From Thermoanaerobaculia bacterium (GTDB lineage: Bacteria; Acidobacteriota; Thermoanaerobaculia; Multivoradales; UBA5704): DNA of 64,000 bases. The stretch lies in contig DATMER010000063.1 in NCBI GenBank assembly GCA_035556715.1, forward strand, positions 4,270-68,269, in the 5' to 3' direction. This document shows positions 24,434 to 28,200 of the stretch, one piece after another. The notes under the pieces are model-generated. The model did no database searches. It saw only the letters and a list, made by a program, of their open reading frames with translations, and had not been told where the DNA came from. The position numbers were made by a program, and so were the translations under genes. The first letter of the stretch is position 1, and every line of letters begins with the position of its first letter.

Positions 24434-25200
24434 TTAGGATAGCAGGGATTCCCGGAGACGCTCGGCCATGCTCAGCACGTTTGGCGTCTCGTGCATGGTT
24501 TCGTGATTGCCGGTCACCAGGAGCACGTCGCACCCGCCTTGGGCGAGATCGATCCAGGCGATCTCCGGCCGCGGCGGATCGCCGGGCCTGCGCTCCCCGG
24601 CGCGGAAGAAGAGCATTCGGCCGGCGAAGGGCCGCGGCTGGTAGGCGTACAGGGCCGCGACGTTGCTCTGGAGGACCCTCACGATCCGCCGGGCACCACC
24701 TTCGTCGAAGTCTTCCGAGAGCGCTCCGGCCTGCCTGGCCTTGTCGATCGCGTAGGAGATCTGCCCGTCCGGGGAGAGGGTTTGCAGCTCTTCGGGGGTG
24801 AGCTCGATCCGGCCGGTGAAGGCGCCGGTCACGATCTCCTCGGAGGTGAGCCGGCGCTGCGGCATCTGCTCGCCGCACGGGGTATCCATCAGGGTGAGCA
24901 GCTCGACCGTCTCGCCCGCCTCCCGCAGCCGGTGGGCCATCTCGAAGGCGACCATGCCGCCCATGGAGGCCCCGCCGATCCGGTACGGCCCGGCGGGCTG
25001 GGCGCTCCGCGCCAGCTCCAGGTAGTGCGTGGCCATCTCCTCGACGCTGGCGAGCGGCTCCTCGCCGTCCTCCAGGCCGAGGGAGCGCAGGCCGTACACG
25101 GTCTGGCTCTTGCCCAGGGCCTGGGCCAGGGCGCGGAAGGTGTAGACGTTGCCGCCCACTTGGTGGACGAGGAAGAGCGGGCGCCGGCCATCGCCCTTCT
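24434..25200 (-). other. C-terminal thioesterase (TE) domain preceded by the ACP (serine near 25390)
   Basis: TE motif GPYRIGGASMGGMVAFEMA (GxSxG) and the downstream sequence …LLVTGNHETMHE… near the catalytic His. ACP motif is DFFELGGSSLMAV. Confidence 0.8.
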
Positions 25201-28200
25201 GAAGCGGCACGAGGCAGGAGGAGCGGAGGCGCTCGGCGGGCCGGCCGGCCTTCGGACGGATGCGGGCAACCATCTCGGCCACTCCTGCCACGGTCGGGGC
25301 CTGAAAGAGGAAGTCGACCGGAAGCTCAATCGACAGCGCCTGCCGAAGCCGGGCGCCGAGCTGGACGGCCATGAGGGAGCTGCCCCCGAGCTCGAAGAAG
25401 TCGTCATGGACGCCGATGCCATCTTCGCCCAGAAGGTCGCTCCAGACCGCGACGATCGCCTCCTCGGTTTCATTGCGCGGTCCTGTCTTGCCAGCCGGGA
25501 CAACAAGCTCCGGGGTCTCTTCCACGGGGACCTCGGCGGCCGGAGCGGTCTTGCCGAAGCGGGCGCCCAGCCCCCGGTCGAATCCGATCCAGTAGCTGCG
25601 GCGCTCGAACGGATAGGTGGGGAGCGGGATGCGGCGGCGGCGCTCGTCGGCCCGGTAGCCGTTCCAGTCCACGTCCACGCCATGAACCCAGAGGCGGCCG
25701 AGCGCGCCGAGGACCGTCTCCAGGTCGGGCTTACGGTCCTTGGCGTGGCTCAGGGAGGAGACCACGAGCCGGGCGGCCTTTTTGTCCGGATGCTGGCGGG
25801 CGAGGGTGCTCAGGGCACGTCCCGGGCCGGCCTCCAGGAGAACCGGATCAGGGAGGCGCAGCAACTCGGAGACGCCGTCCGCGAACCGCACCGCCTGCCT
25901 CAGATGTTCCACCCAATACTCCGGATCGGTGGCCTGCTCCGGGGTAATCCAGGTGCCGGTGAGGTTGGAGAGATACCGCAGCCGGGGCGGCTGGAGCCGG
26001 ACGCTCCGAACCTTCTCGAGGAACGGCTCCAGGATCGGGTCCATCATCCGGGAGTGGAAGGCGTGGGAGGTGTGGAGCGGCCGGGTCTCTACACCCTGGG
26101 TTTCCAGTTCCTTACGCAGGGCTTCGATCTCCTCCTCCGGTCCGGAGACGACACAGGCACGCGGCGCGTTGACCGCGGCCAGAGATAGATCCCGGCCTTC
26201 GATCCACGAGCGGACCTCGTCCCCGGACAGGGAGACGCCGAGCATGGAGCCGGGGGGCAGCTCCTGCATGAGCCGTCCGCGCGCGGCGACCAGGAAGAGG
26301 GCCTCTTCCAGGGAGAAGACGCCGGCCAGGCAGGCGGCCACGTACTCGCCGATGCTGTGGCCGAGCATGGCCGCGGGGCGGATGCCCCAGGAGGCCCAGA
26401 GCCGGGCCAGGGAGTACTCGACGGCGAAGAGGGCCGGCTGCGTGATGGAGGTCTGCGCGAGGTCGGCGTCCTCCAGAGCGTCGCGGAGGTCCAGGTCCAG
26501 CAGCTCGCAGCAGCGGTCGAAGGCGGAGCGGTAGACGGGCTCGTGCTCGTACAGCTCCGCTCCCATGCCCGCGTACTGGGAGCCCTGGCCCGGGAAGAGG
26601 AAGACCACGGAGGGGCTGCCGGCCGCGGACCCGGTCACGGCGCCCTCAATGTCACGAAGGGCAGCGATCGCATCCTCGCCGCAGACCATGGCGCGGCGAT
26701 GGCGGAAGGCCTGGCGCCCTACCTGGAGCGTGAAGGCCGCGTCGTCGAGGCTCGCCTCGGGGTGGGCCTCCAACCAGCCGGCCAGGTTGGCCGTTGCGGT
26801 CTCCAGGGCGGTCGGGGTCTTGGCGGAGAGGACGAGCAGGCGCGACGGCCGGCGGGAGGGCTCGCCCGCCGGGATCTCCGGCGCCTCTTCGAGCACGGCA
26901 TGGGCGTTGGTGCCGCCGATGCCGAAGGAGCTGACCCCCGCCCGGCGGGGAGTACCGTCCGCCGGCCACTCCCGGGTGCGGGCGGCGACGTAGAAGGGGC
27001 TCCCTTCGAAGGGGATCTTCGGGTTGGGCTGCTCGAAGTGGAGGCTCGCCGGGATGGTCCGGTTCTCCAGGGACAGGACGGTCTTGATCAGCCCGGCGAC
27101 TCCGGCGGCGGCGTCGAGGTGGCCGATGTTCGTCTTGATCGAGCCGAGGGCGCAGGCGCCCGGCTTCCCGGTGTCTCCGAAGGCCTGGATCAGGGCCGCG
27201 GCCTCGATCGGGTCGCCCATGGGAGTGCCCGTGCCGTGGGCCTCGACGTAGCCGATGGTGCCGGGCTCGATGCCCGCGGCCCGGTGGGCCTCGCGGATGG
27301 CCGCGGCCTGTCCCTCGACGCTCGGGGCCGTAAAGCCGGGCTTGCCGGAGCCATCGTTGTTGACGGCCGAGCCGCGGATCACGGCGTGGATGGTGTCGCC
27401 GTCGGCGAGGGCGTCTTCCAGGCGCTTGAGCACCACGACCCCGGCGCCGCTGCCGCCCACCACCCCCTGGGCGCGCGCGTCGAAGGCGCGGGTGTGGCCG
27501 TCCGGGGAGTTGATCCCGCCCTCGTGGTAGAGGTAGCCGCCGACCTCCAGCGGCTTGACCGAGACGCCGCCGGCCAGGGCGATCTCGCACTCGCCGCGCA
27601 GCAGGCTCAGGCGGGCGAGGTGGACGGCGACGAGCGAGGTCGAGCAGGCGGTCTGGACGTTCAGGCTCGGCCCGCGCAGGTTCAGCTTGTAGGAGACCCG
27701 CGTGGGCAGGTAGTCGGCGTTGTTCGAGATCGTGACCTGCTGCCGGCCCACGGAGCGGAGGAGATCCGCGTTGAGCAGCAGATTGAGCACGTAGGTGTTC
27801 TCGGTGGTGCCGGCGAAGACGCCGACCCGCTGCCGGTAGCCGTCGGCGCCATAGCCGGCGTTCTCCAGGGCCTCCCAGGCGCACTCGAGGAAGTGGCGCT
27901 GCTGGGGGTCGATGAGCTGGGCCTCGCGGGACGAATACTCGAAGAAAGCGGCGTCGAAGAGATCCGGGCCGTCGAGGGCGCCGCGCCTCCTGACGAAGCG
28001 CGGGTCGAGCACCTCGTCGCCATAGCCGCCGGCGCGCAGCTCCTGCTCGGTAAAGCCGCGGATCGACTCGACCTCGTCGCGCAGGTTGCGCCACAGCTCC
28101 TCGACGTTGCGGGCGCCCGGGAACCGGCCGGCCAGGCCGATGACGGCGATGTCCTCGCTCCCCCGCTCGACGACCGGAGCGGTGACGACGGCGGGCTTCT

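What the first reader, a model, noticed from the sequence alone, without database searches (positions are those of the whole stretch)
24434..28135. Minimal terminal PKS module (KS-AT-ACP) followed directly by TE, with the beta-keto group retained at release
After the last PCP there is a KS (active-site Cys, His and His present), a malonyl-type AT (GHSIGE, HAFH) and an ACP. There is no KR, DH or ER before the GxSxG thioesterase. The released chain would end as a 3-oxo acid of the final amino acid. Such acids readily decarboxylate to a methyl ketone. Alternatively the chain may be captured by an internal nucleophile. The Ser hydroxyl is sulfated or eliminated and the Cys thiols are free, so macrothiolactonisation or enol lactone formation are both conceivable.
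Basis: inference. Interest (0 to 1): 0.5.

Follow-up and report, generated by a model that had tools for sequence, protein, structure and literature searches.

The report
Minimal end-of-line PKS module with thioesterase
An 11-residue peptide assembly line from an uncultured soil Acidobacterium ends in an intact two-carbon extension module with no reducing domains and a release enzyme, a design already characterised in other bacteria, so it is a new example, not a new mechanism.

Summary
The last ~1,240 residues of a 7,954-aa NRPS/PKS (window 24434-48298, minus strand) are KS-AT-carrier-TE. All catalytic motifs are intact: KS Cys6885/His7021/His7060, AT GHSIGE/Arg/HAFH, carrier Ser7641, TE Ser7778/Asp7805/His7932. 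Only 73 residues lie between AT and carrier. A permissive Pfam scan (E<=10) finds no KR, DH, ER or MT, so the beta-keto group should persist on the carrier.

The design is known. CorA (coralinone) and TmcH/EpnH release a beta-keto acid by TE hydrolysis. In CorA it decarboxylates spontaneously. MucE and Alb5/AlmB close a tetramate or pyrrolinone lactam instead. Sequence cannot tell which route applies here. I favour hydrolysis plus decarboxylation (~45%), because the operon has no O-methyltransferase, ACAD or reductase.

New points:
- Six Acidobacteriota relatives whose last A domain could be read, among eleven carrying this terminal unit, all couple it to one unusual Cys-like A-domain code, DLYDFSL[IV]WK.
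- The carrier and TE are NRPS-type.

Seen in passing: a conserved in-frame TGA (probable selenocysteine, UxxC) in the first operon gene, and a secreted di-haem protein directly downstream.

Verdict: a new member of a known kind, of modest interest.

The parts
28499..29929 (-). Adenylation domain of NRPS module 11, the last amino acid. Specificity code DLYDFSLIWK, Cys-like with Asn278Asp.
   Evidence: Domain map. Code extracted against GrsA numbering. The same code precedes the terminal PKS in L001, L004, L005, L006, L007 and L009. The closest outside A domains are Cys-coded cyanobacterial ones, 44-48% identity.
28217..28405 (-). PCP of module 11, which donates the peptidyl chain to the KS.
27032..28156 (-). 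Ketosynthase with Cys6885 (nt 27644-27646), His7021 (27236-27238) and His7060 (27119-27121).
   Evidence: Pfam PF00109/PF02801, E 3e-68 and 4e-43. Motifs. Catalytic positions align with PDB 8xjy, E 3e-222.
26672..27028 (-). KS-AT linker (KAsynt_C_assoc / CurL-like / RhiE-like linker families).
25679..26605 (-). Acyltransferase of malonyl type: GQGSQ, GHSIGE (Ser7315), Arg7340, HAFH (His7412).
   Evidence: Pfam PF00698, E 2.5e-56. Motifs.
25460..25678 (-). Post-AT linker of 73 aa (7541-7613). Too short for any reductive or methyltransferase domain.
   Evidence: No KR, DH, ER or MT family at E<=10.
25268..25459 (-). Carrier domain of the PKS module, PCP-type motif DDFFELGGSSL, Ser7641.
   Evidence: PF00550, E 2.5e-17. 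54% identical to an NRPS PCP of the same protein.
24461..25183 (-). Type I thioesterase of NRPS type: GASMGG Ser7778, Asp7805, GNHETM His7932.
   Evidence: PF00975, E 5e-27. Best solved relatives are NRPS TEs: 4zxh at 1.4e-25 and 7crn. Identity ranking.
31583..32230 (-). Context: sulfotransferase domain embedded after the PCP of the Ser module (module 10). It lies one NRPS module upstream of the PKS module and is not adjacent to the TE.
   Evidence: PF13469, E 9e-30. Map. Ortholog in L001.
22417..24414 (-). Context: the next gene in the operon, a secreted 665-aa protein with two CxxCH haem-binding motifs. A role in the pathway is not shown.
   Evidence: Conserved after the TE in L002, L003 and L005.
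20882..22399 (-). Context: M20-family metallopeptidase with a signal peptide, the last gene of the operon.
   Evidence: Homolog after the TE in L003.

Best explanation
Shown from sequence:
- The assembly line has three colinear genes: G1 A-T-C-A-T-C-A-T, G2 C-A-T-C-A-T, and G3 with six C-A-T modules and an ST domain after the Ser module.
- It ends in a catalytically intact, malonyl-specific minimal PKS module (KS-AT-carrier) fused to an NRPS-type thioesterase.

Inferred:
- The KS takes the undecapeptidyl chain from the PCP of module 11 and condenses it with malonyl-carrier.
- This gives a peptidyl-4-amino-3-oxo-acyl thioester.
- No KR, DH, ER or MT acts in cis, and no reductase, O-methyltransferase or ACAD gene is in the operon. 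The 3-oxo group therefore survives to the release step.

Favoured but not shown:
- The TE hydrolyses the thioester.
- The free beta-keto acid loses CO2 spontaneously, as in CorA, and leaves a C-terminal alpha-(acylamino) methyl ketone on the Cys-like last residue.

My confidence is about 0.9 that the module is a functional non-reducing elongation module. It is about 0.45 that release is hydrolytic with decarboxylation.
For: - Domain content and order.
- Catalytic motifs. They align to a solved KS-AT, 8xjy, E 3e-222.
- The 73-aa AT-to-carrier gap has no weak hit to reductive or MT families at E<=10.
- Architecture, spacing and motifs are conserved in eleven Acidobacteriota loci at 57-86% identity (L001-L009, L016, L017). 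This argues for a selected, working design.
- Operon and flanks contain no SDR/KR, O-MT or ACAD.
- Precedents: the CorA KS-AT-ACP-TE fragment converts a dipeptidyl-SNAC plus malonyl-CoA to the decarboxylated product in vitro (PMC10979478). The TmcH/EpnH TE hydrolyses to a beta-keto acid (PMC9943649).
- The cyanobacterial relatives of the KS-AT-T-TE unit follow A-T-C-A-T lines, which is a cor-like layout.
Against: - Nothing in the sequence distinguishes a hydrolysing TE from a cyclising one. Placement against solved TEs was uninformative.
- The invariant pairing of the terminal unit with one unusual A-domain code suggests that the side chain matters for the end group. A plain methyl ketone does not explain this.
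- MucE shows that the same module type can close a lactam.
- Trans-acting enzymes encoded outside the 64-kb window cannot be excluded. The source is a metagenome contig.
Confidence: 0.45

Rival explanations
1. The TE releases the chain by lactam formation. The amide nitrogen of the last residue attacks the thioester and gives a C-terminal N-acyl pyrrolidine-2,4-dione (tetramate), as in MucE/RtcK. This is the unmethylated counterpart of the althiomycin or dolastatin-15 methoxypyrrolinone.
For: - MucE (KS-ACP-TE) does exactly this in vitro (PMC10161427).
- The same is proposed for the Alb5/AlmB terminal malonyl module plus TE (PMC3445576).
- An S33 alpha/beta-hydrolase gene opens the operon. S33-type proteins (AlmF, ChmF) are proposed helpers in pyrrolinone pathways.
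Against: - No O-methyltransferase domain or gene is in the operon. Pyrrolinone clusters have one.
- MucE needed a D-configured residue, and module 11 has no E domain or dual E/C signature.
- The S33 protein here is secreted (signal peptide in the L006 homolog), so it cannot act on the synthetase.
Confidence: 0.22
2. The TE uses another internal nucleophile. One option is the side chain of the extended residue itself, giving a six-membered 3-oxo-delta-thiolactone (or a lactam if the residue is Dap-like). The other is the free N-terminal amine, giving a head-to-tail macrolactam that keeps a beta-keto amide.
For: - The special A-domain code is strictly conserved before every such terminal unit in the Acidobacteriota relatives where it could be read. 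This fits side-chain participation.
- The loading module is A-T with no starter C domain, so the N-terminus is probably a free amine.
- The T-TE pair is NRPS-type, and many NRPS TEs are cyclases (general knowledge).
Against: - I know of no precedent for the six-membered thiolactone.
- The same code also occurs at an internal position in L005, so the residue is not exclusively an end-group former.
- All C domains are ordinary HHxxxDG types and there are no E domains. There is thus no D-residue pre-organisation of the kind typical of macrocyclising lines.
Confidence: 0.2
3. The beta-keto group is processed after all, by a trans-acting ketoreductase, methyltransferase or other tailoring enzyme encoded outside the window. 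The released end group would then be a statine-like 3-hydroxy acid or a modified enol.
For: - The source is a metagenome contig and the rest of the genome is unseen.
- Relatives with cis-KR versions of the module exist, for example L058 and L063.
Against: - The operon is compact. It is bounded by housekeeping genes (nuo, a T2SS ATPase, a heptosyltransferase) with no such enzyme.
- The minimal layout is conserved in eleven related loci.
Confidence: 0.08
4. The PKS module is inactive or skipped, and the TE releases the plain undecapeptide.
For: None specific. Module skipping is known in general.
Against: - All catalytic residues of KS, AT, carrier and TE are intact and conserved across relatives.
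- The TE is tethered to the PKS carrier, not to PCP11.
Confidence: 0.03

Closest known systems
CorA, coralinone synthetase of Corallococcus exiguus (A-T-C-A-T-KS-AT-ACP-TE), PMC10979478
   Same: - NRPS followed by a terminal malonyl-type KS-AT-carrier-TE with no reductive domain.
- The TE releases a peptidyl beta-keto acid that decarboxylates spontaneously. This was shown in vitro with the excised KS-AT-ACP-TE.
   Different: - CorA has two NRPS modules, and its product cyclises to a 5-methylpyrazinone via the nearby free N-terminus.
- Here there are eleven modules, so pyrazinone formation is impossible.
TmcH/EpnH/EpxE terminal PKS of epoxyketone proteasome inhibitors (KS-AT-cMT-ACP-TE), PMC9943649
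   Same: The peptidyl chain is extended by one malonate, the beta-keto group is kept, and the TE hydrolyses to a beta-keto acid.
   Different: - Those modules contain a C-methyltransferase.
- Those clusters encode the flavin decarboxylase-desaturase-monooxygenase (ACAD-like).
- Neither is present here.
MucE/RtcK of mutanocyclin/reutericyclin (KS-ACP-TE), PMC10161427
   Same: A minimal non-reducing PKS module with TE after an NRPS module, and the beta-keto thioester is the release substrate.
   Different: - MucE lacks a cis AT.
- It acts on an N-acyl-D-Leu and closes a tetramate lactam.
- Whether the TE here cyclises is unknown.
Alb5/AlmB terminal module of althiomycin, PMC3445576
   Same: A long NRPS protein ending in a malonyl-specific PKS module plus TE.
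   Different: - The althiomycin clusters encode an O-methyltransferase (Alb3/AlmC) that fixes the enol before ring closure. No such gene is in this operon.
- The residue extended there is Gly.
CurM-type ACP-ST-TE off-loading (terminal alkene formation); from my own knowledge
   Same: The same protein contains both a PF13469-type sulfotransferase domain and a TE.
   Different: - ST and TE are not adjacent. C-A-T-KS-AT-T lie between them.
- The ST follows the PCP of a Ser module.
- The substrate reaching the TE has a 3-oxo group, not a 3-sulfo-oxy group.

Membership tests
Modular type I PKS, minimal (non-reducing) elongation module | KS with a Cys-His-His triad | tested here: met
   TACSTS, EAHGTGT and KTNIGH motifs. 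They align to solved KS-AT 8xjy.
Modular type I PKS, minimal (non-reducing) elongation module | Cis AT with an active Ser and Arg and a malonyl-type HAFH motif | tested here: met
   GHSIGE, Arg7340 and HAFH. PF00698, E 2.5e-56. The substrate call from the motif is an established rule, not an assay.
Modular type I PKS, minimal (non-reducing) elongation module | Carrier domain with a phosphopantetheinyl Ser | tested here: met
   PF00550, E 2.5e-17. Motif LGGSSL with Ser7641. The motif is PCP-like, not ACP-like.
Modular type I PKS, minimal (non-reducing) elongation module | No KR, DH, ER or MT between AT and carrier | tested here: met
   The gap is 73 aa and no such family appears at E<=10.
cor-like 5-methylpyrazinone synthetases (CorA) | Exactly two NRPS modules before KS-AT-ACP-TE | tested here: not met
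   Eleven A domains precede the KS.
cor-like 5-methylpyrazinone synthetases (CorA) | Hydrolytic release and spontaneous decarboxylation of the beta-keto acid | not testable with these tools
   This needs an enzyme assay or product isolation.
Methoxypyrrolinone-forming termini (althiomycin type) | Cluster-encoded O-methyltransferase acting on the beta-keto thioester | tested here: not met
   No MT domain is in G1-G3. The only MT-like gene (PF02636, 12738-13922) lies 7 kb beyond the operon, among unrelated genes.
Epoxyketone synthases (EpxE/EpnH/TmcH plus ACAD) | Cis C-methyltransferase and a neighbouring ACAD-like flavoenzyme | tested here: not met
   Neither was found.
CurM/OLS-type ST-TE decarboxylative off-loading | Contiguous ACP-ST-TE acting on a 3-hydroxyacyl-ACP | tested here: not met
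   The ST lies at aa 5357-5572 and the TE at 7706-7946, with C-A-T-KS-AT-T between them. No KR is present to make a 3-hydroxyl.
Lactam-forming (tetramate) terminal PKS-TE (MucE/RtcK) | TE catalyses N-to-C1 lactam closure of the N-acyl-4-amino-3-oxoacyl thioester | not testable with these tools
   No sequence signature is known to me. The solved-structure neighbours are uninformative.

The most novel reading that the evidence does not exclude
Uncultured Thermoanaerobaculia/Holophagales would share a dedicated C-terminal end group. It would be built from one unusual Cys-like residue (A code DLYDFSL[IV]WK), one malonate and an NRPS-type TE. Candidate structures are a mercaptomethyl tetramate, a 3-oxo-delta-thiolactone or a thiol-bearing aminoketone. 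The end group would then be matured outside the cytoplasm by the operon's secreted selenocysteine UxxC oxidoreductase-hydrolase fusion and its di-haem enzyme. That would be a new peptide warhead and a new maturation logic.
Probability: 0.15. Interest if true: 0.6.

Novelty: new member of a known kind. Interest (0 to 1): 0.3.

Why it matters
The module confirms that non-reducing terminal PKS modules on long NRPS lines occur in uncultured Acidobacteriota, a phylum with almost no characterised natural products. It also predicts a reactive C-terminus (aminoketone, tetramate or thiolactone) on a hydrophobic Leu/Ala/Val-rich undecapeptide. The mechanism itself is already documented elsewhere. The value therefore lies in genome mining, meaning a recognisable conserved end-unit to target, and not in new enzymology.

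Tried and rejected
- **Cryptic KR, DH, ER or MT.** Rejected. A permissive Pfam scan and the 73-aa gap leave no room for one.
- **KS0.** Rejected. The triad is intact and aligned.
- **CurM-like ST-TE off-loading.** Rejected on domain order.
- **Epoxyketone or methoxypyrrolinone pathway.** No ACAD, cMT or O-MT is present.
- **TE placement among solved TEs.** The best hits are NRPS TEs of unrelated chemistry, with no PKS macrolactone TEs, so this was uninformative on release mode.
- **Finding the source genome or a characterised cluster.**
  - The GTDB scan gave only 57-86% relatives in MAGs.
  - An exact-protein look-up placed the locus on a metagenome contig.
  - The literature search for the A-domain code found nothing.
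- **L054, L057 and L060 (Myxococcus, Corallococcus) as possible cor-like loci.** Their minimal KS-AT-T modules are internal to long NRPS lines, not cor-like.
- **Rfam and tRNA scans of the window.** Nothing found.
- **PDB search with the Trx-like C-terminal domain.** Only a non-significant hit to a protein disulfide oxidoreductase, E 1.4.
- **A first translation of L006 was in the wrong frame.** One search was discarded and redone.
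Full report
**1. What is there**

The window carries three colinear minus-strand megasynthetase genes:
- G1, 54489-62534
- G2, 48295-54492
- G3, 24434-48298, 7,954 aa

I mapped domains by Pfam and by BLAST of one copy of each domain against all three proteins:
- G1: A-T-C-A-T-C-A-T
- G2: C-A-T-C-A-T
- G3: five C-A-T modules, a sulfotransferase domain (aa 5357-5572) after the fifth PCP, a sixth C-A-T, then KS-AT-T-TE

Coordinates of the terminal unit:
- KS: aa 6715-7089
- AT: aa 7232-7540
- Carrier: aa 7614-7677
- TE: aa 7706-7946

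This is 11 NRPS modules plus one PKS module. The KS actually begins at 28156.

**2.

- A permissive Pfam scan (E<=10) of the last 1,255 aa lists only KS, KS-AT linker families, AT, PP-binding and thioesterase/alpha-beta-hydrolase families, plus a marginal Thiolase_N hit inside the KS region. No KR, DH, ER or MT family appears.
- The AT profile ends at aa 7540 and the carrier starts at 7614. The 73 residues between them (VDVDWNGY...PLPTYPFERRSYW...) are a post-AT linker. A cryptic KR is excluded.
- The KS has TACSTS, EAHGTGT and KTNIGH. These align residue for residue with the best solved KS-AT (8xjy, E 3e-222). It is not a KS0.
- The AT has GQGSQ, GHSIGE, the Arg, and HAFH, which is the malonyl type by the established motif rule.
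- The carrier Ser is in DDFFELGGSSL.
- The TE has GASMGG, Asp7805 and GNHETM.

**3. Nuances**

- The carrier is PCP-like in motif. It is 54% identical to an NRPS PCP of the same protein, more than PCP10 (46%) or PCP11 (43%) are.
- The TE's best solved relatives are NRPS TEs: 4zxh at 1.4e-25 and 7crn at 3.5e-21. DEBS- or Pik-type TEs do not appear among the hits.
- The unit therefore looks like an NRPS termination T-TE with a KS-AT pair placed in front of it.

**4. Predicted chain**

I extracted specificity codes against GrsA numbering. My recalled GrsA sequence reproduces DAWTIAAICK at the canonical positions. The codes are:

| Module | Code | Reading |
|---|---|---|
| M1 | DALVLGAVYK | unassigned |
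| M2, M4 | DAWFLGHVVK | Leu-type |
| M3, M5, M6, M8, M9 | DL[FY]N[NT]ALT.K | Ala-type |
| M7 | DALWLGGTFK | Val |
| M10 | DVWHISLVDK | Ser, followed by ST |
| M11 | DLYDFSLIWK | Cys-like |

- Assignment of codes to amino acids rests on my knowledge of published codes.
- M11 matches the Cys code DLYNLSLIWK at 8 of 10 positions, with Asn278Asp.
- Its A domain is closest, outside its own family, to Cys-coded cyanobacterial A domains: 44-48% identity against 39-45% for the others.
- All C domains are ordinary HHxxxDG types. There are no Cy, E or dual E/C signatures.
- There is thus a single Cys-like residue, and it is the one the PKS extends.

**5. Relatives**

- The locus is on a metagenome contig, ENA ERZ27251540 k141_4497306.
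- The nearest relatives are Thermoanaerobaculia and Holophagales MAGs, with 57-86% identity per domain.
- L001 is the ortholog of the T-ST-C-A-T-KS-AT-T stretch.
- L002 is the ortholog of the end of the gene plus the downstream gene.
- Eleven Acidobacteriota loci carry the same terminal KS-AT-T(-TE) unit with the same AT-to-carrier spacing. The catalytic motifs are conserved wherever the locus covers them.
- In all six loci where the preceding A domain is present, its code is DLYDFSL[IV]WK. The penultimate residue varies: Leu, Ala or Ser.
- The code also occurs once at an internal position, in L005.
- TE identity to the window TE:
  - 57-79% for the Acidobacteriota minimal modules
  - 40-41% for the cyanobacterial stand-alone KS-AT-T-TE proteins that follow A-T-C-A-T lines
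  - at most 37% for TEs of NRPS lines or of PKS modules with extra domains, with one exception (L049, 42%)
- More than half of the 120 best database hits are KS-AT-carrier-TE without KR. The architecture is common.

**6. Operon context**

- Upstream of G1 lies an S33 TAP-like hydrolase ORF that continues in frame through a TGA into a UxxC domain.
- Downstream of G3 lies a secreted 665-aa protein with two CxxCH motifs. It has weak but ordered matches to the di-haem peroxidase/MauG/MbnH signature motifs.
- After that comes a secreted M20 peptidase.
- Beyond these are housekeeping genes: the nuo operon, a T2SS ATPase, a heptosyltransferase, a PfkB kinase and a GDPD.
- The operon contains no SDR/KR, no O-methyltransferase and no ACAD.

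**7. Mechanism**

Shown: the module has everything needed to add one malonate-derived C2 unit to the peptidyl chain, and nothing to process the 3-oxo group.

Inferred: the TE substrate is peptidyl-NH-CH(R)-CO-CH2-CO-S-carrier.

Two release modes for exactly this situation have experimental support:
- **Hydrolysis to a beta-keto acid.** In CorA it decarboxylates spontaneously (PMC10979478). In TmcH/EpnH it is processed by the flavin decarboxylase-desaturase-monooxygenase TmcF/EpnF (PMC9943649).
- **TE-catalysed lactam closure to a tetramate.** Shown for MucE (PMC10161427). The O-methylated pyrrolinone version is proposed for Alb5/AlmB (PMC3445576) and related systems (PMC11085572).

The weighing:
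- I favour hydrolysis plus decarboxylation (about 0.45). The accessory genes of the other routes are absent, and the nearest non-Acidobacteriota relatives of the unit have a cor-like layout.
- This is not decisive. The strict conservation of one unusual residue before the PKS argues that the side chain contributes to the end group.
- That keeps lactam (0.22) and side-chain or N-terminal capture (0.20) alive.
- Trans tailoring from outside the window (0.08) and an inactive module (0.03) are minor.

**8. Comparison and novelty**

- The module is a member of the minimal non-reducing type I PKS module class. All defining features were tested and met.
- It works like CorA, TmcH or MucE termini.
- It is not a member of these families:
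  - cor family: eleven modules, not two
  - epoxyketone family: no cMT or ACAD
  - methoxypyrrolinone family: no O-MT
  - CurM ST-TE system: ST and TE are not contiguous
- Verdict: a new member of a known kind, with interest 0.3.
- The most novel reading still open is a conserved Acidobacteriota end group built from the Cys-like residue and matured extracellularly. I give it a probability of 0.15.

Noticed in passing
window 62568-63998 (- strand); TGA at 62970-62972; L006 10333-10335; L005 923-925: The first operon gene (S33 TAP-like hydrolase) and the following 133-codon ORF share one frame, separated by a single TGA. The motif is ...LVLVLSPT-TGA-PVC, a thioredoxin-like UxxC. The in-frame TGA is conserved in two related loci. 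A hairpin (GGACACC-CGGGT-GGTGTCC) about 15 nt downstream is predicted in all three, with compensatory changes. This is probably a secreted selenocysteine-containing hydrolase-oxidoreductase fusion. The L006 homolog is 812 aa with a signal peptide.
   Followed up: partly
window 22417-24414 (- strand): The gene directly after the TE encodes a 665-aa secreted protein with no Pfam hit. It has two CxxCH motifs (CATCH, CFVCH). Ordered weak matches to the di-haem peroxidase/MauG/MbnH signature motifs appear against 6e1c. It is conserved after the TE in L002, L005 and, in fragmented form, L003.
   Followed up: partly
window 31583-32230 (- strand): A PF13469 sulfotransferase domain is embedded in the NRPS between the PCP of the Ser module and the next C domain (T-ST-C). 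The same arrangement occurs in L001 and similar ones in L048 and L023. It would sulfate a PCP-bound Ser beta-hydroxyl. Whether the sulfate is kept or eliminated to dehydroalanine is unknown.
   Followed up: partly
window 25268-25459 (- strand): The carrier domain of the PKS module has an NRPS-PCP core motif (DDFFELGGSSL). It is more similar to the reference PCP (module 7) than PCP10 or PCP11 are. The closest relatives keep LGGSSL and the cyanobacterial ones have LGGDSL.
   Followed up: partly
window 20882-22399 (- strand): The last gene of the operon is an M20-family metallopeptidase with a signal peptide. A homolog also follows the TE in L003. Its role (processing, resistance or unrelated) is unknown.
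   Followed up: no
window 35918-36109 (- strand; G3 aa ~4064-4127): The A domain of module 9 shows a break of about 65 residues in its alignment to a sister A domain, between the core and the C-terminal subdomain. It was not examined.
   Followed up: no
window 1-5000 versus 20800-64000: In the ENA short-read assembly that holds identical proteins, the nuo genes and the NRPS operon lie on different contigs (k141_1033194 and k141_4497306). The window joins them, so it comes from a different, more contiguous assembly of the same or a near-identical organism.
   Followed up: no
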